Shown: piece by piece, positions 12,001 through 45,000 of the stretch | Position numbering within the stretch: the stretch's first letter is position 1 | How the letters are laid out: each line of letters opens with the position of its first letter | Assembly (NCBI GenBank): GCA_965202585.1 | Contig: OZ241832.1 | Location: forward strand, 55,366,001 to 55,430,000 | Origin: Thalia democratica | Lineage: Eukaryota | Direction: 5' to 3' | DNA: 64,000 nt | Position numbers: made by a program

Positions 12001-15000
12001 TCAAATAACTACGTGTTTTAATTGATTTCATGGTCAAGTTTTACATTTCAATCTATTTACATAATTTTTATTTTTTAATTGACAAAAAAAAATTCAACTT
12101 TTTTGTAGACGGGTTTTAGTGTGTAAGAAAATAAAACTCAAATTTAAACTGCAGGCTATGCAGAACCTGTTTAGATTCGGTTTTAATATCTGTTTGCATA
12201 GTTTTTACTATAGATTTAAATAACGTTGACTTTTAAAGGGTGTTTAACAACTACAAATTTCTTTCTTTTAGATATTTATATAGTGCAGTAAGAATATTAC
12301 TCAAAACTATTTATACGACAGTTTCTAATATATGATAATATTTTATATTAGTGTTTCCACTTAGTACTTTATTTAAAGGTGTAATCTAAAACACAACTAA
12401 TATTCTTGTATGCAGGCATATAAAAATAATGCAGAATAATTCTTAATATTTAAGTTTACAAAATACAAAACTTTTTATTTTCCAGAAATAAATATCACAA
12501 TCAATTATATCTTTCTTTTCGAGTCATAAGATGTTAACAATCGCTATATAAAAACAATTTGGAATATTATTTTATTTTAGGATCATATTTCTAGCATATA
12601 TAAAGTTTAATCGTTAATATATAGCAGAACATTGTTTATTAGTCTACACTTAACAGTTTCTATGACATCAGCCGATTCAACTACGTAATTTGTCAGTATT
12701 AATACGTTTTGCATTTTTAATCAATCTTTCAAGCAAATATTATTCAAGCAGTATACTTGACCGTATAATTAAAGTCTATTATTGACCATTTTATTTATTA
12801 TGTTTTGAATAACATACTAAGAGATTAAAAGAACTACCTTAAAATATTTTAAGTTGAAATTAACAAGCTTAAGTTTTTAAAGTTTATATCAATTAATTTT
12901 TAATAAGCCAGTAATAAAATGAGTATAAAACTATAAAGAAATTTTCGTAGCTATTTGTTTGTTGAAGTTTTTTAGTTATGTTACTATGAAAACATGTATC
13001 AAACGACGTATTCTGTATGGGTACTACGTATTTAGGTTGTTATGTATGTAATAAATTTACAACTAAAATACAACGAGTTCTTACGTATGTAATAAAAACA
13101 TGTTATGATATTTGGGTGCATCAACGTTTATAAAAAGTTCCATGAACTCCAAAAAAAAATTCAAAGAAATTTACAGTTAAATATTCATGTATTTTTTTAT
13201 ACCCATTTGTTACTAGTGTTATTCAAGCAAAAAAACACAGTTTTCAAAATAATTGTTAAATTAAGCTCTTACATATGTAAGTGAGTATAATTTTTCTAAT
13301 TACAAAACATGATCTACTGTCAGGTGTAAAAAAGCCTTTAATGTATATAACATTACTTTATAAACCTTTGTAAACAAAATAATTTCTAACAAACTATTTT
13401 AATATTCTAGTTTTCAGAAAAGTGTTATGAAAAGAAGTAAATTTCTTTAAGCTTATTAAAAATCACTTTTTTTAATGTACTTGGACATTAAATCTTACAT
13501 TTAATAAAAAGTATAGACTAGTACTTAGACGTTTTTCTGAGTAATTATTGTTCGTTTAATTAGATAAACAAGTACATATTTTTTGATGTCAAAAAAATTA
13601 CAGGTCATGAGTTACGTCTTCAATTAAAAAATACATAGAAGTTGCTGATTGTTAATAATCAAATTTCTGTGTATTGTTTGTTTTTAAATGTCAAATAAAG
13701 CATATGTTTTTTATTATAATGACATATTAATTTGAAACAGTATGTTCATATTTTAACTATGAATAAATTGTTTGTGAATATATAGAAAAAATATTTTTTC
13801 TAAAATCAAGCATTTATGCGTTATTACGTTTTAATTTTTTAATATTTTTAAAGTTTTATAAAGCTCATAACAACAATTTTTTTTTAATTTATAGAAAAAT
13901 GTTTAAAAAACGTTTTCTAAAATCAGTTTAAATATTTTAAATAGTTTATATTTACGCTTAAACTGCAAAAAATTACACCTCGTGAGATATTCCACTTGAA
14001 TATTTTGTTTAAAAATATTTCTAATGACAAAAAATTGCCTTCAGTTTACGTCTATATATAAAGTGATAAGTAAACGCATTTGTTTAAAAAGTAGCAACGA
14101 TAGTTGCTTTCAAGTTTCTGACTACGTCTATAACACTAAAAATAATACTGTACTGAATTATTTTATAACCATTAAGTTAAATATATCATTAACGTAGATA
14201 TTATTCATTAAATTTTAATTTCATATATAGTTTGTTTTATATAAATTTTGCTTGTAATAATTAAAATCTTTATATAATTTATTGATATCTAAAAGTACAA
14301 TTTGTAGAAGTTAAACACAACACAATAACAAAACTTTTAATTTTAATTAAATTATACTTTATCTGTTTTTTTTTAAGTATTGTGTTTATGATTAATATTA
14401 AAAATGAGTATTGTTTCAATTTTTGACTTTTTGTAACTAAATATGTAATATATTTTTAGTTTTTTATAACTCAATTCTGTCTTTTTTACAATTCCGAATA
14501 AGTTTTTATTTATTTGCTATCCTTTTAAAAGTTTCTATAAGAATTTTTAAAGCTTTTATTTGAATTTTTTAAAACTATTTATAGTATAGCAAGGTAATTT
14601 TTTAATATCAAATTATAGTTTTATGTTTAGTTAGTGCTTTCTTAATCATTAAAAAGTAAGTGAGTTTTTATTCTAAAATTATAGTTTCTCAATTACGTAT
14701 ATTACAAACAATAAGTTAATTATAGTTTTTTAAAAATACACTTCTAATAACAAATACAAATGTTTCTGAAAACACAACGGTCTATTTTGCAAGATTTAAA
14801 GAACTTAAATCAAGTTGTAACTTAATAAAAGCAATATTAGTAATTCGTTCTACTTTATATTAAACAGAGATAGAAAAAATACAGCATACTGTTTAAATTT
14901 AGCTAAAACCTTATAAAAAAAAAAACTATTAAAATCATCCAAGATTTTCAAGCCATCGATTGAAGTTCTGTTTTGTTTTCATCAATGTCATCATTTTCTT

Positions 15001-42000: not shown

Positions 42001-45000
42001 AACTGTAGTAGTACGGGAGTGTAATATAGTAGTACTGTTACTAATTAGTATAATGTTATTGGTAGACCTTATAAGAATTCTATCATCAGATTTAACAAGC
42101 GTTTTTATTTTGTTAACTAAACTGAACTCATAGACCTGTACAAGGATGTCTTGTAAGCCTCTGAAAAAATTTATGACTTTCTGTTATTGCTTTAGAGTTT
42201 TTACATGAACAAATGAAATTAAACCTTATACATCATCTTTAAGTTAATAAATTAAGCTAGCGTATCTATAAAACTTTAGCAAAAATTGCATAATAATACT
42301 CAATATAAATAAAAAAAAACAGTTAAAGATCGATTTGTAACAAAGTCACAACTTGTTTTATTTCGCAAAAATATACAACGAGTACTTTTTAATATGGTTA
42401 ACAAATTTTGCAAGTAAAAGCTTACACAAAATGAGTTAGACGCATAAGATAAGTTCAGCCGAAGTGTTACGCTAAACTAAGTCATCTGTTTATTGTTTTT
42501 TTTTCGGATTCTTATTCAAATTATCTATTTAATTTAATCACCTCAATAGCTCCAACTAACGGTAAATCTTGAAATTATGTTTTAAGTATCACAATGCAAA
42601 AATCAAAAGTTTATCGACTTGACTTTGTTTTTATTTATAAAGTTTTTTTGTTAAAATACCGTAGTATAATAAATATCTGAAAATTTAGTTTTAATCTATC
42701 GTTGAAAATGTAAACAGTTGCAAATATAGCAAAAAGCTTAAACTAAATTTAATGATTGAAACAGACGTAACACTAACGAAAATAATCTATATTTTATCTT
42801 TAAATATGACAACTTAACTTAATCTGTTTAAAATTTGTAAATCAAAAATACACAAATTTATTAAAATAATTTCTAATATTTTACAAGTTTTTTGTTACAG
42901 TGCGAAGAAAATGATGACATTGATGAAAACAAAACAGAACTTCAATCGATGGCTTGAAAATCTTGGATGATTTTAATTTTTTTTTTTATAAGGTTTTAGC
43001 TAAATTTAAACAGTATGCTGTATTTTGTCTATCTCTGTTTAATATAAAGTAGAACGAATTACTAATATTTCTTTTATTAAGTTACAACTTACTTTAAATT
43101 CTTTTAATCTTGCAAAATAGACCGTTGTGTTTTCAGAAACATTTTTATTTGTTATTAAAAGTGTATTTTTAAAAAACTATAATTAACTTATTGTTTCTAA
43201 TATACGTAATTGAGAAACTATAATTTTAGAATAAAAACTCACTTACTTTTTAATGATTAAGAAAGCACTAACTAAACATAAAATTATAATTTGATATTAA
43301 AAAATTACCTTGCTATACTATAAATAGTTTTGAAAAATTCAAATAAAAACTTTAAAAATTCTTATAGAAACTTTTAAAAGGATAGCAAATAAATAAAAAC
43401 TTATTCGGAATTGTAATAAAGACGGAATTAAGTTATAACAAACTAAAAATATATTACACATTTAGTTACAAAAAGTCAAAAATTGAAACAATACTCATTT
43501 TTAATATTAATCATAAACACAATACTTAAAAAAAAAAACAGTTAAAGTATAATTTAATTAAAATTAAAAGTTTTGTTGTTGTGTTGTGTTTAACTTCTAC
43601 AAATTTTTCTTTTAGATATCAATGAATTATATAAAGATTTTAATTATTACAAGCAAAATTTATATAAAACAAACTATATATGAAATTAAAATTTAATGAG
43701 TAATATCTACGTTAAGGATATATTTAACTTAATGGTTATAAAATAATTTAGTACAGTATTATTTTTAGTTTTATAGACGTAGTCTGAAACTTGAAAGCAA
43801 CTATCGTTGTTACTTTTTAAACAAATGCTTTTACTTATCACTTTATATATAGACGTAAACTTAAGGCAATTTTTTGTCATTAGAAATATTTTTAAACAAA
43901 ATACTCAAGTGGAATTTCTCACGAGGTGGATTTTTTTTTAGTTTAAGCGTAAATATAAACTATTTAAAATGTTTAAACTGGTTTTAGAAAACGTTTTTTA
44001 AACTTTTTTTCTATAAATTAAAAAAAAATTGTTGTTATGAGCTTTTTAAAACTTTAAAAATATTAAAAATTAAAACATAATAACGCATAAATGCTTGAAT
44101 TTATAAAAAATAATATTTTTTCTATATATTCAAAAACAATTATTTATAGTTAAAATATGAACATACTGTTTCAAATTGATATGTCATTATAATAAAAAAC
44201 ATATGCTTTATTTGACATTTAAAAACAAACAATACACAGAAATTTGATTATTAACAATCAGCAACTTCTAGGTATTTTTTAATTGACGACGTAACTCATG
44301 ACCTGTAAACTTTTTGACATCAAAAAATATGTACTTGTTTATCTAATTAAACGAACAATAATTACTCAGAAAAACGTCTAAGTACTAGTCTATACTTTTT
44401 ATTAAATATAAAATTAAATGCCTAAGTACATTATAAAAATTGATTTTTAATAAGCTTAAAGAAATTTACTTCTTTTCATAACACTTTTCTGAAAACTAGA
44501 ATATCATAATAGTTTGTTAGAAATTATTTTGCTTACAAAGGTTTTTAACGTAATGTTATTTACAATGGTTCATTAAAGGTTTTTCACACCTGACAGTAGA
44601 TCATGTATTGTACTTGAACAAAAAGTTATAGTCACATACAATGTAATCAATTAAATAAACAATTATTTTAAAAATGTATTTTTTCTACTTGAATAACACT
44701 TGAAATAAATTGGTATAAAAAATATATAAATACCTAATTGTAAATTTCATTTGAATTTTTTTCTGCAATTCATGGAAATTTTTATAAACTTTGATGCACC
44801 CAAATATCATAAACATGTTTTTATTACATACGTAAGAACTCGTTGTTTTTTAGTTGTAAATTTATTTATACAGAATACGACGTTTGACACATGTTTTCAT
44901 AGTAATATAACTTAAAAACATCAATAAACAAATAGCTATTAAAAGTTCTTTATAGTTCTTTACTAATTCTATTACTAGCTTATTAAAAAATAATTGATAA

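What the first reader, a model, noticed from the sequence alone, without database searches (positions are those of the whole stretch)
14948..42957. Coding exons almost identical between arms while introns and flanks are patchily diverged
Seen: only 7 differences in 1,320 coding nt (3 synonymous); exons 4, 5, 6, 8, 9 and 10 are identical, including third positions. By eye, intron 6 (18.1-20.4 vs 37.4-39.8 kb) and outer blocks (e.g. 13.2-13.35 kb vs 44.5-44.7 kb; 11.7-12.1 vs 45.8-46.1 kb) have many substitutions and indels (roughly 75-90% identity), while 15.7-16.3 kb and 28.2-29.2 kb are ~97-98% identical. Inference: purifying selection alone should not freeze synonymous sites, so this suggests ongoing patchy arm-to-arm gene conversion, possibly focused on exons.
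Basis: partly seen in the sequence, partly recalled or inferred. Interest (0 to 1): 0.65.

Follow-up and report, generated by a model that had tools for sequence, protein, structure and literature searches.

The report
Inverted Rh transporter gene pair, exons homogenised
Two head-to-head copies of an Rh-type ammonium transporter gene sit in a 14-kb palindrome whose exons are almost identical while many intron stretches differ by 10-17%, the pattern expected when the two copies keep copying short stretches from each other, a known process seen here in a clear form.

Summary
The window (GC 21-30%, no N, not taken for human) holds a palindrome: arms 11345-29205 and 32359-46551, with a 3.15-kb spacer. 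Each arm carries a 10-exon Rh-type ammonium transporter gene, and the two genes are transcribed divergently.

- **Exons:** they differ at 7 of 1320 nt (3 synonymous, 4 not). Exons 4, 5, 6, 8, 9 and 10 are identical.
- **Non-coding sequence:** introns differ at 531 of 7572 aligned nt and flanks at 290 of 5137.
- **Synonymous sites:** dS is 0.010, against 0.070 differences per aligned intron site (Fisher P = 1.6e-6). For exons 3-6 against introns 3-6, P = 2e-6.
- **Patchiness:** divergence is strongly patchy (dispersion 4.4). Four kb-scale blocks run about 3%, 9.6%, 2.8% and 9.5%, and a finer mosaic runs from about 0.7% to 17%.
- **Identity islands:** the six longest perfect runs each contain an exon, but four near-identical tracts are non-coding. 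Five of the seven exon differences lie within 23 nt.

The best reading is an old inverted duplication partly homogenised by short-tract arm-to-arm gene conversion. Conversion persists where selection and the absence of indels keep homology, which is in the exons. "Ongoing" conversion and concerted evolution against orthologues could not be tested. This is a known kind of process and a new example of it, paralleling human RHD/RHCE.

The parts
11345..29205 (.). Left palindrome arm. It includes a 3.3-kb arm-specific transposon insertion.
   Evidence: Inverted BLAST HSPs and two-block MAFFT alignment. Over both arms there are 13,201 matches, 828 mismatches and 686 gap columns.
32359..46551 (.). 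Right palindrome arm.
   Evidence: Outside 11345/46551 the identity falls to 45-54%, which is random level.
29206..32358 (.). Unique 3.15-kb spacer between the arms. Its right end carries a 344-bp tandem duplication that overlaps the arm junction.
   Evidence: The innermost 142 nt of the arms are 100% complementary.
24917..28218 (.). hAT-like, non-autonomous transposon present only in the left arm. It has perfect 14-nt terminal inverted repeats. The 8-bp target-site duplication lies at 24909-24916 and 28219-28226. The empty site in the right arm is at 33318-33325.
   Evidence: There is a weak Dimer_Tnp_hAT match for ORF 27292-27633(-): E = 0.013, 15.7 bits, below the 21.4-bit cut-off.
14948..24295 (-). 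Left copy of the Rh-type ammonium transporter gene, from ATG to stop, with 10 exons.
   Evidence: Exon model with GT-AG at every intron. Pfam PF00909 matches on exon ORFs. The best PDB matches are RhCG and RhAG.
33939..42957 (+). Right copy of the Rh-type ammonium transporter gene, from ATG to stop, with 10 exons.
24291..24295 (-). Exon 1, coding part (5 nt: the start codon plus 2 nt, followed by a GT donor), left copy. The right copy is at 33939-33943. The 5' UTR extent is unknown.
Evidence: This is one of three 5-nt start-plus-donor candidates listed in the scan of the left arm (24810, 24547, 24295). I chose it because its donor hexamer is the one also seen at exons 4 and 6. It lies in a 167-nt perfect run, 24231-24397. 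There is no transcript evidence.
23353..23516 (-). Exon 2, left copy (right copy 34553-34716), 164 nt, 5 differences.
23428..23450 (-). A 23-nt divergence patch inside exon 2 (right copy 34619-34641). It holds 5 differences: 2 synonymous and 3 amino-acid changes (I/V, V/M, D/Y).
   Evidence: Clustering was reached in 0 of 200,000 simulations. In the 2-state HMM, 22 exon columns fall in the high-divergence state.
22448..22637 (-). Exon 3, left copy (right copy 35179-35368), 190 nt, 1 synonymous difference.
21861..22011 (-). Exon 4, left copy (right copy 35832-35982), 151 nt, identical. It is embedded in a 206-nt perfect run, 21845-22050.
21113..21257 (-). Exon 5, left copy (right copy 36582-36726), 145 nt, identical. 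Perfect run 21112-21296.
20484..20647 (-). Exon 6, left copy (right copy 37198-37361), 164 nt, identical. Perfect run 20465-20655.
17943..18080 (-). Exon 7, left copy (right copy 39805-39942), 138 nt, 1 non-synonymous difference (T/A).
16921..17054 (-). Exon 8, left copy (right copy 40857-40990), 134 nt, identical. Perfect run of 333 nt, 16729-17061.
16538..16709 (-). Exon 9, left copy (right copy 41202-41373), 172 nt, identical. Perfect run of 237 nt, 16491-16727.
14948..15004 (-). Exon 10 including the stop codon, left copy (right copy 42901-42957), 57 nt, identical.
22328..29205 (.). Inner low-divergence block (right arm 32359-35488): 98 differences in 3122 aligned columns, 3.1%.
18085..22327 (.). 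Middle high-divergence block (right arm 35489-39800): 404 differences in 4219 columns, 9.6%. It contains the identical exons 4-6 as islands.
13499..18084 (.). Low-divergence block (right arm 39801-44407): 126 differences in 4573 columns, 2.8%. It covers exons 7-10, introns 7-9 and 1.4 kb of 3' flank.
11345..13498 (.). Outer high-divergence block (right arm 44408-46551): 200 differences in 2115 columns, 9.5%.
15663..16138 (.). Near-identical non-coding tract in intron 9, with 2 differences in 473 columns. The other exon-free near-identical tracts are 28966-29205, 28352-28557 and 17110-17226.
   Evidence: 3-state HMM decoding. No Pfam match for ORF 15726-15959(+). No Rfam family matched.

Best explanation
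**What it is.** An Rh-type (Rh50-like) ammonium transporter gene was duplicated in inverted orientation long ago. The oldest surviving patches differ by about 15-17%. Since then the two arms have been homogenised piecemeal by DNA-templated, non-allelic (arm-to-arm) gene conversion.

**How the mosaic arises.** There were a few kb-scale events, which left two blocks at about 3%. There were also many short tracts of tens to a few hundred nt, and these give a fine mosaic from about 0.7% to 17%.

**Why the exons stay identical.** Conversion needs uninterrupted homology. Purifying selection removes most non-synonymous changes and all indels from exons, so exons stay similar enough to keep being converted. 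Their synonymous sites are carried along. Introns that drift past a threshold, or acquire indels, escape and diverge further. This is a positive feedback.

**The exon 2 patch.** The 23-nt patch is either a remnant that escaped conversion or one kept different by selection.

**Shown and inferred.** Shown here: the anatomy, the counts, the statistical contrasts and the association of identity islands with exons. Inferred: that conversion is the homogenising process, its homology dependence, and its direction and timing.
For: 1. dS is 0.010 and 1 of 197 four-fold sites differs. Intron divergence is 0.070 (P = 1.6e-6). Exons 3-6 against their own introns (0.105) give P = 2.1e-6.
2. Non-coding DNA also shows near-identity: intron 8 has 1 difference in 211 nt, intron 2 has 7 in 456, and 4 of 12 near-identical HMM tracts hold no exon. 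Codon-level constraint therefore cannot be the general cause.
3. Block structure runs 3.1%, 9.6%, 2.8% and 9.5%. In 20 within-block shuffles at the lower penalty, segmentation added one further segment in 1 shuffle.
4. HMMs with two or more divergence states beat a single rate. BIC is 6302 for one state, 5936 for two states (2.4% and 15.3%), and 5955 for three states (0.7%, 4.3% and 17.2%).
5. All 6 of the 6 longest perfect runs (184-333 nt) contain an exon. Only 28 of 14,028 circular shifts reach the observed overlap of near-identical columns with exons.
6. Identity tracts run into introns on several sides. Counting identical columns to the first and then the second difference: exon 8 downstream 192/429, exon 3 downstream 60/92, exon 5 upstream 39/101. 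This points to a genomic DNA template.
7. Five of the 7 exon differences lie in 23 nt, a local divergence of about 22% that is like the oldest intron patches.
8. In introns 3-6 divergence is 3.8% within 20 nt of exons, 6.7% at 21-50 nt and about 9-13% beyond. The longest perfect run inside introns 1-6 is only 56-81 nt, which leaves little homology there.
9. A published model of divergence-dependent interlocus conversion plus purifying selection predicts non-synonymous < synonymous < intron divergence, with long introns escaping (bioRxiv 10.1101/2025.10.29.685298, sections 7 and 12 read).
10. In my toy simulation on the real exon layout, one parameter set gave third positions 1.0%, non-coding 6.6% and dispersion 4.8, with 3 of 10 replicates matching. 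That set had an indel barrier and very frequent tracts of about 50 nt.
Against: - With only two sequences and no outgroup, conversion is inferred and not observed. No tract direction, no shared polymorphism and no orthologue tree could be obtained.
- dS is not significantly lower than the youngest non-coding class (2.1%; P = 0.14).
- The toy model reproduced patchiness widely but not the contrast. Observed non-coding divergence is 9.5 times third-position divergence. The mean ratio was at most 1.6 in 24 parameter sets, at most 3.4 in 32 sets, and at most 7.8 in 20 sets.
- Replicates matching the data appeared in 1 of the 20 sets (3 of 10 replicates). That set needs a per-site conversion rate about 400 times the per-site divergence rate. 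An additional exon preference is therefore not excluded.
- Intron length does not order intron divergence.
- Local GC does not predict identity in non-coding DNA (Spearman rho = -0.06, P = 0.49), and the gene's GC3 (0.53) is within the range of neighbouring ORFs (0.29-0.54). There is therefore no visible GC-biased conversion signature.
Confidence: 0.7

Rival explanations
1. There is no conversion. The exons are identical because purifying selection also acts on synonymous sites (codon usage, splicing enhancers, mRNA structure), while introns diverge freely after an old duplication.
For: Identity islands hug the exons. Around exons 4-6 perfect identity extends only 1-39 nt beyond the exon ends. 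Intron divergence is already 6.7% at 21-50 nt and about 11% at 51-100 nt from the exons in introns 3-6. GC3 of 0.53 is far above the 22-26% GC of the introns, so synonymous sites are not at mutational equilibrium.
Against: - Only 1 of 197 four-fold sites differs, against about 10% in adjacent introns. That would need near-total constraint on every synonymous site.
- Two synonymous and three non-synonymous changes cluster in 23 nt of exon 2, which uniform constraint does not predict.
- Near-identical non-coding tracts and alternating kb-scale blocks of 3% and 9.5% stay unexplained.
- Neighbouring single-copy ORFs have similar GC3.
Confidence: 0.05
2. The duplication, or a last whole-arm homogenisation, is young at about 2-3% divergence. 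The exons are then simply at or slightly below background. The 10-17% patches arose later through locally elevated mutation, error-prone repair, or ectopic conversion of intronic repeats from copies elsewhere in the genome.
For: The best-BIC HMM has two states, with 10,479 of 14,029 columns in the 2.4% state. dS does not differ significantly from the lowest non-coding class (P = 0.14). Columns within 10 nt of an indel are more diverged: 9.6% against 6.0%.
Against: - High-divergence patches are concentrated in two blocks and not scattered.
- Only 23% of their columns are near indels, and their GC (0.227) equals that of the intermediate-divergence non-coding state (0.228).
- An ungapped 317-nt stretch is 88% complementary, so this is not misalignment.
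- 30 patch queries found 0 other copies in the window. This has limited power, since the window is only 64 kb.
- A 6-7-fold difference in mutation rate at the 100-nt scale that spares every exon has no known cause.
Confidence: 0.1
3. Exon-limited homogenisation arises through a spliced-transcript template: cDNA or RNA of one copy repairs breaks in exons of the other copy, so introns are never copied.
For: dS is far below intron divergence, which is the criterion used to argue for cDNA donors in fungal ribosomal-protein paralogues (bioRxiv 10.1101/751792, passages read). Exons 4, 5 and 6 are separate islands in 5-12.5% diverged introns. The exon 1 / 5' UTR region is also an island. My simple DNA-templated toy model reproduces the 9.5-fold contrast only in a narrow regime.
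Against: - Several identity tracts continue well into introns or across one. Intron 8 has 1 difference in 211 nt. Identical columns to the first and second difference are 192/429 downstream of exon 8, 60/92 downstream of exon 3, 39/101 upstream of exon 5, and 102/142 upstream of exon 1.
- Four near-identical tracts contain no exon.
- All nine introns are retained in both copies, whereas cDNA-mediated recombination is expected to remove introns (recalled, not tested).
Confidence: 0.07
4. This is an assembly artefact. Either two diverged haplotypes of a single-copy locus were joined head-to-head, or a real but more diverged pair had its most similar segments (the exons) made identical by read mis-mapping during polishing.
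For: One arm carries a transposon insertion, tandem-repeat copy numbers differ between arms, and exon identity with intron divergence is also what alleles show. Perfect runs are confined to segments long and similar enough for short reads to multi-map.
Against: - The window has no N.
- The arms are joined through a unique 3.15-kb spacer and have different unique outer flanks.
- 7-12% intron divergence with 79+ indel events is far beyond ordinary heterozygosity.
- Polishing cannot create identity from about 10% divergence. It also leaves the 23-nt patch in exon 2 and single differences in exons 3 and 7.
Confidence: 0.05

Closest known systems
Human RHD / RHCE
   Same: Both are Rh-family genes duplicated in opposite orientation on one chromosome, with documented gene conversion between the copies and local islands of retained difference. 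Source: PMC4824203, passages read: opposite orientation, 3' ends facing, about 30 kb between the genes, frequent conversions. Its reference list names Innan 2003 on conversion with selection at RHCE/RHD. My recollection, from no call, is that human RH genes also have 10 exons of similar sizes (for example 151, 138 and 134 nt).
   Different: Here the genes are head-to-head (5' ends facing) with about 9.6 kb between the start codons. This includes the 3.15-kb spacer and a 3.3-kb transposon. The protein is of the transporter (Rh50 / Rh glycoprotein) type: the best solved relatives are RhCG and RhAG, not Rh(CE). The genome is AT-rich and non-human, so this is an independent duplication.
Mosaic divergence of tandem HMA4 paralogues in Arabidopsis halleri under divergence-dependent interlocus gene conversion (bioRxiv 10.1101/2025.10.29.685298)
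   Same: The ordering non-synonymous < synonymous < intron divergence is the same, some introns escape conversion, and differences are enriched in the first exons (sections 7 and 12 read).
   Different: HMA4 copies are tandem, and their long-intron divergence is at most 6.3%. That work had population data with shared polymorphisms. Here the copies are inverted, patches reach 15-17%, intron length does not order divergence, and no population data exist.
Sex-chromosome palindromes (primate Y and X) with arm-to-arm gene conversion
   Same: Inverted arms around a unique spacer, with genes in the arms and conversion between arms. Seen only as search listings and abstract starts for PMC3723533, PMC8600007, PMC8981503 and PMC8327919.
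   Different: Those arms are more than 99% identical along their whole length and much larger, and GC-biased conversion is documented. Here arm identity is 94.1%, or 89.7% with gaps, the arms are patchy, and no GC signal is visible. This is a palindrome that is largely decaying except at its exons.
Inverted paralogous gene pairs in Caenorhabditis maintained by conversion (PMC1803023)
   Same: These are invertebrate, divergently or convergently oriented paralogue pairs. The inverted repeat is conserved within a species more than between species, and this is ascribed to conversion (passages read).
   Different: Those repeats are short and nearly perfect, and they include the intergenic region. 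The paper makes no exon/intron contrast: 'intron' and 'synonymous' each occur 0 times in its text.
Fungal ribosomal-protein gene duplicates (bioRxiv 10.1101/751792)
   Same: dS is significantly lower than intron divergence between paralogues, with coding-only homogenisation (passages read).
   Different: The authors infer cDNA donors. Here identity tracts extend into and across introns, which favours a genomic DNA template.

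Membership tests
Amt/MEP/Rh ammonium transporters, Rh (Rh50 / Rh glycoprotein) branch | Match to the Pfam Ammonium_transp profile (PF00909), colinear along the gene. | tested here: met
   searched exon by exon. Of 8 exon ORFs, 4 score above the 23.2-bit cut-off: exons 5, 6, 7 and 8 at 38.3, 40.3, 31.2 and 36.8 bits. One is below it (exon 3, 15.4 bits) and 3 have no match (exons 2, 4, 9). The matched profile positions rise in order: 37-86, 148-202, 194-252, 252-296, 294-329.
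Amt/MEP/Rh ammonium transporters, Rh (Rh50 / Rh glycoprotein) branch | The closest solved relatives are Rh proteins and not Amt proteins. | tested here: met
   covering 4 exons. The top hits are always human RhCG (3hd6) and RhAG (7uzq), with E from 1.5e-14 to 1.4e-07. The bacterial Rh50 entries (3b9w, 3b9y, 3bhs) come next. Exons 2, 4, 7, 9 and 10 were not searched against the PDB.
Amt/MEP/Rh ammonium transporters, Rh (Rh50 / Rh glycoprotein) branch | Conserved pore residues: an Asp and a His in the D-x-G-G...I-H stretch, and a His in the N-L-H-G stretch. Their role as the pore residues is recalled from memory. | tested here: met
   The alignments show these residues aligned with RhCG and RhAG. 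Exons 5 and 8 are identical in both arms.
Amt/MEP/Rh ammonium transporters, Rh (Rh50 / Rh glycoprotein) branch | Ammonia/ammonium transport activity, and expression of both copies. | not testable with these tools
   There are no transcript or functional data. Both copies have open exons and GT-AG introns.
Concerted evolution of paralogues by interlocus gene conversion | Synonymous divergence between paralogues is significantly below neutral non-coding divergence of the same duplicated unit. | tested here: met
   pS = 0.010 against 0.070 in introns (P = 1.6e-6). Against the lowest non-coding class (2.1%) the difference is not significant (P = 0.14).
Concerted evolution of paralogues by interlocus gene conversion | Mosaic of tracts with discordant divergence along the duplicated unit. 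| tested here: met
   dispersion 4.37, four blocks, multi-state HMMs preferred, and 12 perfect runs of at least 150 nt against 0.09 expected.
Concerted evolution of paralogues by interlocus gene conversion | Paralogues within the species are closer to each other than to their orthologues, or polymorphisms are shared between copies. | not testable with these tools
Large palindromes kept near-identical by arm-to-arm conversion (sex-chromosome type) | Inverted arms around a unique spacer. | tested here: met
Large palindromes kept near-identical by arm-to-arm conversion (sex-chromosome type) | Arm-to-arm identity above 99% along the arms. | tested here: not met
   94.1% without gaps and 89.7% with gaps. 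Only 3478 of 14,029 columns are in the 0.7% state.
cDNA-templated (exon-only) gene conversion | Homogenised tracts end at exon borders, and introns are not homogenised. | tested here: inconclusive
   Tight around exons 4-6, with 1-39 nt of flanking identity. Not met at exons 8-9, where intron 8 has 1 difference in 211 nt. Also not met downstream of exon 3 (60/92 identical columns to the first and second difference), upstream of exon 5 (39/101), or upstream of exon 1 (102/142).
hAT transposons (the arm-specific insertion) | 8-bp target-site duplication and short terminal inverted repeats. | tested here: met
   14-nt perfect terminal repeats at 24917-24930 and 28205-28218, flanked by an 8-bp duplication. 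The right arm has the empty site.
hAT transposons (the arm-specific insertion) | hAT transposase with a C-terminal dimerisation domain. | tested here: inconclusive
   Dimer_Tnp_hAT E = 0.013, 15.7 bits, below the 21.4-bit cut-off, on a 114-aa ORF. There is no long transposase ORF.

The most novel reading that the evidence does not exclude
The exon-tight identity islands are not only a by-product of homology-dependent conversion. On this reading they reflect a mechanism that truly prefers exons in an animal palindrome. One such mechanism is repair of breaks in one copy from the spliced transcript (cDNA or RNA) of the other. Another is preferential initiation in the GC-richer, indel-free exons.

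My plain DNA-templated toy model reached the observed 9.5-fold contrast between non-coding and third-position divergence only in 1 of 20 parameter sets (3 of 10 replicates). Its mean ratio stayed at or below 3.4 in the 56 sets. This leaves room for such a mechanism.
Probability: 0.08. Interest if true: 0.75.

Novelty: new member of a known kind. Interest (0 to 1): 0.35.

Why it matters
- **A compact natural experiment.** One 35-kb locus holds a gradient from converted to escaped sequence: 0%, 0.7%, 3%, 10% and 17%. The exon islands are sharply bounded. This makes it usable for measuring tract lengths, homology thresholds and the barrier effect of indels. It could also separate homology-feedback from transcript-templated conversion once population or orthologue data exist.
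- **A practical warning.** Dating this duplication from dS (0.01) would underestimate its age by more than ten-fold compared with the oldest intron patches.
- **An evolutionary parallel.** It is an independent case in which an Rh-family gene has been duplicated in inverted orientation and evolves in concert, as RHD/RHCE do in humans.
- **Otherwise ordinary.** The process itself is well known.

Tried and rejected
- **One global alignment of both arms.** It mis-aligned the inner 1 kb because of the 3.3-kb insertion. I replaced it with two blocks that were later merged.
- **The ATG nearest exon 2 (about 23574).** In both arms its reading frame hits a stop after five codons, and the nearby GT donor is GC in the right arm (read). 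I rejected it as exon 1. A scan for start-plus-donor candidates listed three 5-nt candidates. I kept the one at 24295 for its donor hexamer. There is no transcript support.
- **Greedy binary segmentation.** It found the kb-scale blocks but only one exon island, so I used HMMs.
- **GC content as a predictor of identity in non-coding DNA.** No relation was found (rho = -0.06, P = 0.49).
- **Misalignment near indels as the source of divergence.** Excluding columns within 10 nt of an indel leaves 6.0% non-coding against 0.54% exon divergence.
- **High-divergence patches as repeats.** 30 queries gave 0 extra hits in the window.
- **A third Rh copy as donor.** Exon-by-exon tblastn finds exactly two copies.
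- **Intronic RNA genes as the cause of non-coding islands.** There were 0 Rfam matches at gathering score and 0 tRNAs.
- **A GC3 excess as a sign of biased conversion.** GC3 of 0.53 is within the neighbours' range of 0.29-0.54.
- **Toy simulations.** These cover 76 parameter sets. Most reproduce patchiness but not the exon contrast.
- **Literature search 'Rh50-1' + 'Rh50-2'.** It found 0 papers, because the names are printed with a species prefix. One search then found the Aedes papers.
- **Not done.**
The 5 codons split by introns and the start codon were left out of dN/dS.
  - The single scan of genome contigs (prokaryotes only), the ESM Atlas, structure prediction and complex prediction were not used, because they could not bear on the question.
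  - The organism was not identified.

Full report
**What the window is**

The 64-kb window has 21-30% GC throughout and contains no N. I do not take it for human. It is far too AT-rich, and its Rh exon peptides are only partly similar to the human Rh proteins in the PDB. The organism was not identified, because no eukaryotic sequence collection was open. The 10-exon Rh gene points to an animal. My memory, from no call, is that human RH genes have exons of 151, 138 and 134 nt, the same sizes as exons 4, 7 and 8 here.

**Anatomy**

- **Palindrome.** BLAST of the window against its reverse complement and an inverted-repeat scan show a palindrome. The left arm is 11345-29205 and the right arm is 32359-46551, around a unique 3.15-kb spacer. 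Outside 11345 and 46551 identity drops to random level. The innermost 142 nt of the arms are 100% complementary.
- **Transposon.** The left arm alone carries a 3302-bp insertion (24917-28218). It has perfect 14-nt terminal inverted repeats and an 8-bp target-site duplication, and the right arm shows the empty site. An internal 114-aa ORF gives a weak hAT dimerisation-domain match, E = 0.013, below the cut-off. I read this as a degenerate hAT-type element that inserted after the duplication.
- **Aligned totals.** With the element removed, the arms align over 14,715 columns: 13,201 matches, 828 mismatches and 686 gap columns.

**The gene**

- **Family.** Each arm holds one copy of an Rh-type ammonium transporter gene. 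The left copy is on the minus strand and the right copy on the plus strand, so the genes are head-to-head and transcribed away from the spacer.
- **How it was searched.** I searched the spliced model exon by exon only. The joined coding sequence or protein was never built, so no full-length search, fold or codon model was run.
- **Pfam.** PF00909 matches 5 of 8 exon ORFs in colinear order, 4 of them above the gathering score.
- **Solved structures.** The four exons sent to the PDB search hit human RhCG (3hd6) and RhAG (7uzq) best, followed by the bacterial Rh50 structures. The aligned D-x-G-G...I-H and N-L-H-G stretches are intact and identical in both copies. I recall, from no call, that these stretches contain the pore residues.
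- **Exon model.** The model has GT-AG at every intron in both arms. Exon 1 is inferred only from a start codon plus 2 nt followed by a donor whose hexamer matches those of exons 4 and 6.
- **Copy number.** The window holds exactly two copies.

- **Exons.** They differ at 7 of 1320 nt. Five differences are in exon 2 (2 synonymous; I/V, V/M and D/Y replacements). One synonymous difference is in exon 3 and one T/A replacement is in exon 7. Exons 4, 5, 6, 8, 9 and 10 are identical.
- **Non-coding sequence.** Introns differ at 531 of 7572 aligned nt (7.0%). They range from 1 of 211 (intron 8) to 53 of 431 and 58 of 463 (introns 3 and 5) and 264 of 2391 (intron 6). Flanks differ at 290 of 5137.

**Synonymous sites against introns**

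I used whole codons within exons. The five split codons and the start codon were left out, and none of them carries a difference.

- There are 292.7 synonymous sites with 3 differences (dS 0.010) and 1006.3 non-synonymous sites with 4 differences (dN 0.004).
- One of 197 four-fold sites differs.
- Against all introns, Fisher one-sided P = 1.6e-6. Against the flanks, P = 5.9e-5.
- For exons 3-6 against their own introns (10.5%), P = 2.1e-6.
- For exons 7-10 against introns 7-9 plus the near 3' flank (3.1%), P = 0.032.
- Against the least diverged non-coding class (2.1%), the difference is not significant (P = 0.14).
- Base composition cannot explain the contrast. Exon third positions are GC-richer (GC3 0.53) than the introns. 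By general knowledge, not tested here, GC-rich sites in an AT-biased genome should mutate faster and not slower.

**Patchiness**

- **Dispersion.** Non-coding differences per 100 columns are over-dispersed, with an index of 4.37 and P = 1.6e-54.
- **Blocks.** Conservative segmentation gives four blocks:

| Block (left-arm coordinates) | Divergence |
|---|---|
| 29205-22328 | 3.1% |
| 22327-18085 | 9.6% |
| 18084-13499 | 2.8% |
| 13498-11345 | 9.5% |

- **HMMs.** Models with two or three divergence states beat one rate. BIC is 6302, 5936 and 5955 for one, two and three states. The fitted states are 2.4% and 15.3%, or 0.7%, 4.3% and 17.2%.
- **Near-identical tracts.** In the three-state decoding, 12 near-identical tracts cover 3478 columns and include 1165 of the 1320 exon columns. 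Eight tracts contain exons. Four do not: 29205-28966, 28557-28352, 17226-17110 and 16138-15663.
- **Association with exons.** Only 28 of 14,028 circular shifts reach that exon overlap. The six longest perfect runs (184-333 nt) each contain an exon.
- **Edges of the islands.** In introns 3-6 divergence is 3.8% within 20 nt of an exon, 6.7% at 21-50 nt and about 9-13% beyond. The islands are therefore tight. Several do run into introns: 192 identical nt downstream of exon 8, 60 downstream of exon 3 and 39 upstream of exons 4 and 5.

**Why conversion and not constraint or artefact**

- **Constraint.** Codon-level constraint cannot explain near-identity in introns 2 and 8, in the four exon-free tracts, or in the 4.6-kb 2.8% block, which includes 1.4 kb of 3' flank.
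- **The exon 2 patch.** Five of the seven exon differences lie within 23 nt of exon 2, reached in 0 of 200,000 random placements. The 2-state HMM puts 22 exon columns in the high-divergence state. Local divergence there (about 22%) matches the oldest intron patches. Synonymous sites in this gene can therefore diverge, and the rest of the coding sequence looks reset.
- **Misalignment.** This is not the cause. Removing indel-adjacent columns leaves 6.0% against 0.54%, and a 317-nt ungapped stretch is 88% complementary.
- **Repeats.** The high-divergence patches are not repeated elsewhere in the window (0 hits for 30 queries).
- **RNA genes.** No RNA family or tRNA explains the non-coding islands.
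- **Haplotype mis-join.** This is unlikely. There is no N, the spacer is unique, the outer flanks differ, and there are 79 or more indel events.
- **Polishing.** It could have sharpened identity in already similar segments, but it cannot create identity from 10% divergence. Raw reads would settle this.

**Why the exons**

- **The published model.** Conversion success that falls with divergence, combined with purifying selection, predicts non-synonymous < synonymous < intron divergence, with some introns escaping (bioRxiv 10.1101/2025.10.29.685298, sections 7 and 12 read).
- **Homology left in the introns.** Consistent with that model, the longest perfect run inside introns 1-6 is only 56-81 nt, while exon-centred runs are 184-333 nt.
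- **Toy simulation without indels.** I ran a toy simulation on the real exon layout. It reproduces the patchiness over many settings. The mean ratio of non-coding to third-position divergence stayed at or below 1.6 in 24 settings and at or below 3.4 in 32 settings. The observed ratio is 9.5.
- **Toy simulation with an indel barrier.** Adding indels as barriers raised the ratio to 6.5-7.8. It produced data-like replicates (3 of 10) in 1 of 20 settings. That setting had tracts of about 50 nt and a per-site conversion rate about 400 times the divergence rate.
- **What this means.** Homology feedback is sufficient in principle but only in a narrow regime of this crude model. An extra exon preference is therefore not excluded.
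- **The cDNA alternative.** The transcript-template idea, argued for fungal ribosomal-protein paralogues on the same dS-below-intron criterion (bioRxiv 10.1101/751792, passages read), is disfavoured here. Tracts extend into and across introns, and all introns are retained.
- **GC-biased conversion.** No signature is visible. Without an outgroup the differences cannot be polarised.

**Comparison with what is known**

- **RHD/RHCE.** The closest parallel is the human pair. These are Rh-family genes in opposite orientation with frequent conversion (PMC4824203, passages). They lie tail-to-tail about 30 kb apart, whereas here the genes are head-to-head and of the transporter type.
- **Caenorhabditis.** Inverted paralogue pairs maintained by conversion are described there (PMC1803023, passages).
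- **Sex-chromosome palindromes.** These keep more than 99% identity along whole arms (search listings and abstract starts only). This palindrome fails that feature (94.1%) and looks like one that is decaying except at its exons.
- **Other animals.** Some insects carry two Rh50 genes, for example Aedes (PMC5905399, passages). I found no description of an inverted Rh50 pair with exon-focused identity in searches, which cover only the open-access library.

**What stayed unchecked**

- Population data, transcripts and raw reads.
- The organism's identity.
- Anything that needs the joined coding sequence.

**Verdict**

The locus is a clear new example of a known process: concerted evolution of an inverted gene pair by patchy gene conversion that persists at the exons.

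Noticed in passing
window 24917-28218 (target-site duplication at 24909-24916 and 28219-28226): A 3.3-kb hAT-like element is present in the left arm only. It has perfect 14-nt terminal inverted repeats and an 8-bp target-site duplication, and the right arm keeps the empty site at 33318-33325. There is no intact transposase, only a 114-aa ORF with a weak hAT dimerisation-domain match. It inserted after the duplication, in a block that is about 3% diverged on both sides.
   Followed up: yes
window 22836-23183 and 23880-24219: Two arm-specific tandem repeats lie in the left gene copy. One is an 86-bp unit repeated 4.0 times in intron 2. The other is a 164-bp unit repeated 2.1 times in intron 1. 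The right arm has fewer copies (265 and 165 indel bases respectively), so repeat copy number has changed since the last homogenisation.
   Followed up: partly
window 31782-32411: A 344-bp tandem duplication (1.8 copies, 95% match) straddles the junction between the spacer and the right arm. As a result the innermost 53 nt of the arm occur a third time at 32015-32067.
   Followed up: partly
window 15663-16138 (right arm about 41771-42246): A near-identical tract with no known exon lies in intron 9, with 2 differences in 473 columns. It has slightly raised GC (0.27-0.32). ORFs on both strands have no Pfam match and no Rfam family matched. It could be an unannotated exon, a regulatory element or just a recent conversion tract.
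   Followed up: partly
window 50094-50327 (-), 52855-53148 (+), 5090-5494 and 5811-6263 (+): Single-copy coding-like ORFs lie outside the palindrome. One is phospholipase-A2-like (E = 4.3e-6, 27.6 bits, below the 32.1-bit cut-off). One has a Kelch motif (24.3 bits, above the 20.1-bit cut-off). Two GC-rich ORFs at 5.1-6.3 kb have only weak GNAT acetyltransferase matches (E = 0.016). Exon structures were not worked out.
   Followed up: partly
window 59665-61000, 55864-56112, 48075-48244, 9018-9205: There are other tandem arrays: a 269-bp satellite-like repeat (5 copies, and BLAST shows near-identical higher-order copies to 61273), a 15-nt minisatellite (16.9 copies), an 18-nt GC-richer minisatellite that creates long spurious ORFs, and a 66-bp repeat.
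   Followed up: no
window 23536-23625 (right arm about 34445-34534): The last 90 nt of intron 1, just upstream of the exon 2 acceptor, are among the most diverged short stretches near any exon, with 14 differences in 90 columns. They include a GT/GC difference at a donor-like site. Together with the 23-nt patch in exon 2, this makes the 5' end of exon 2 the least homogenised part of the gene.
   Followed up: partly
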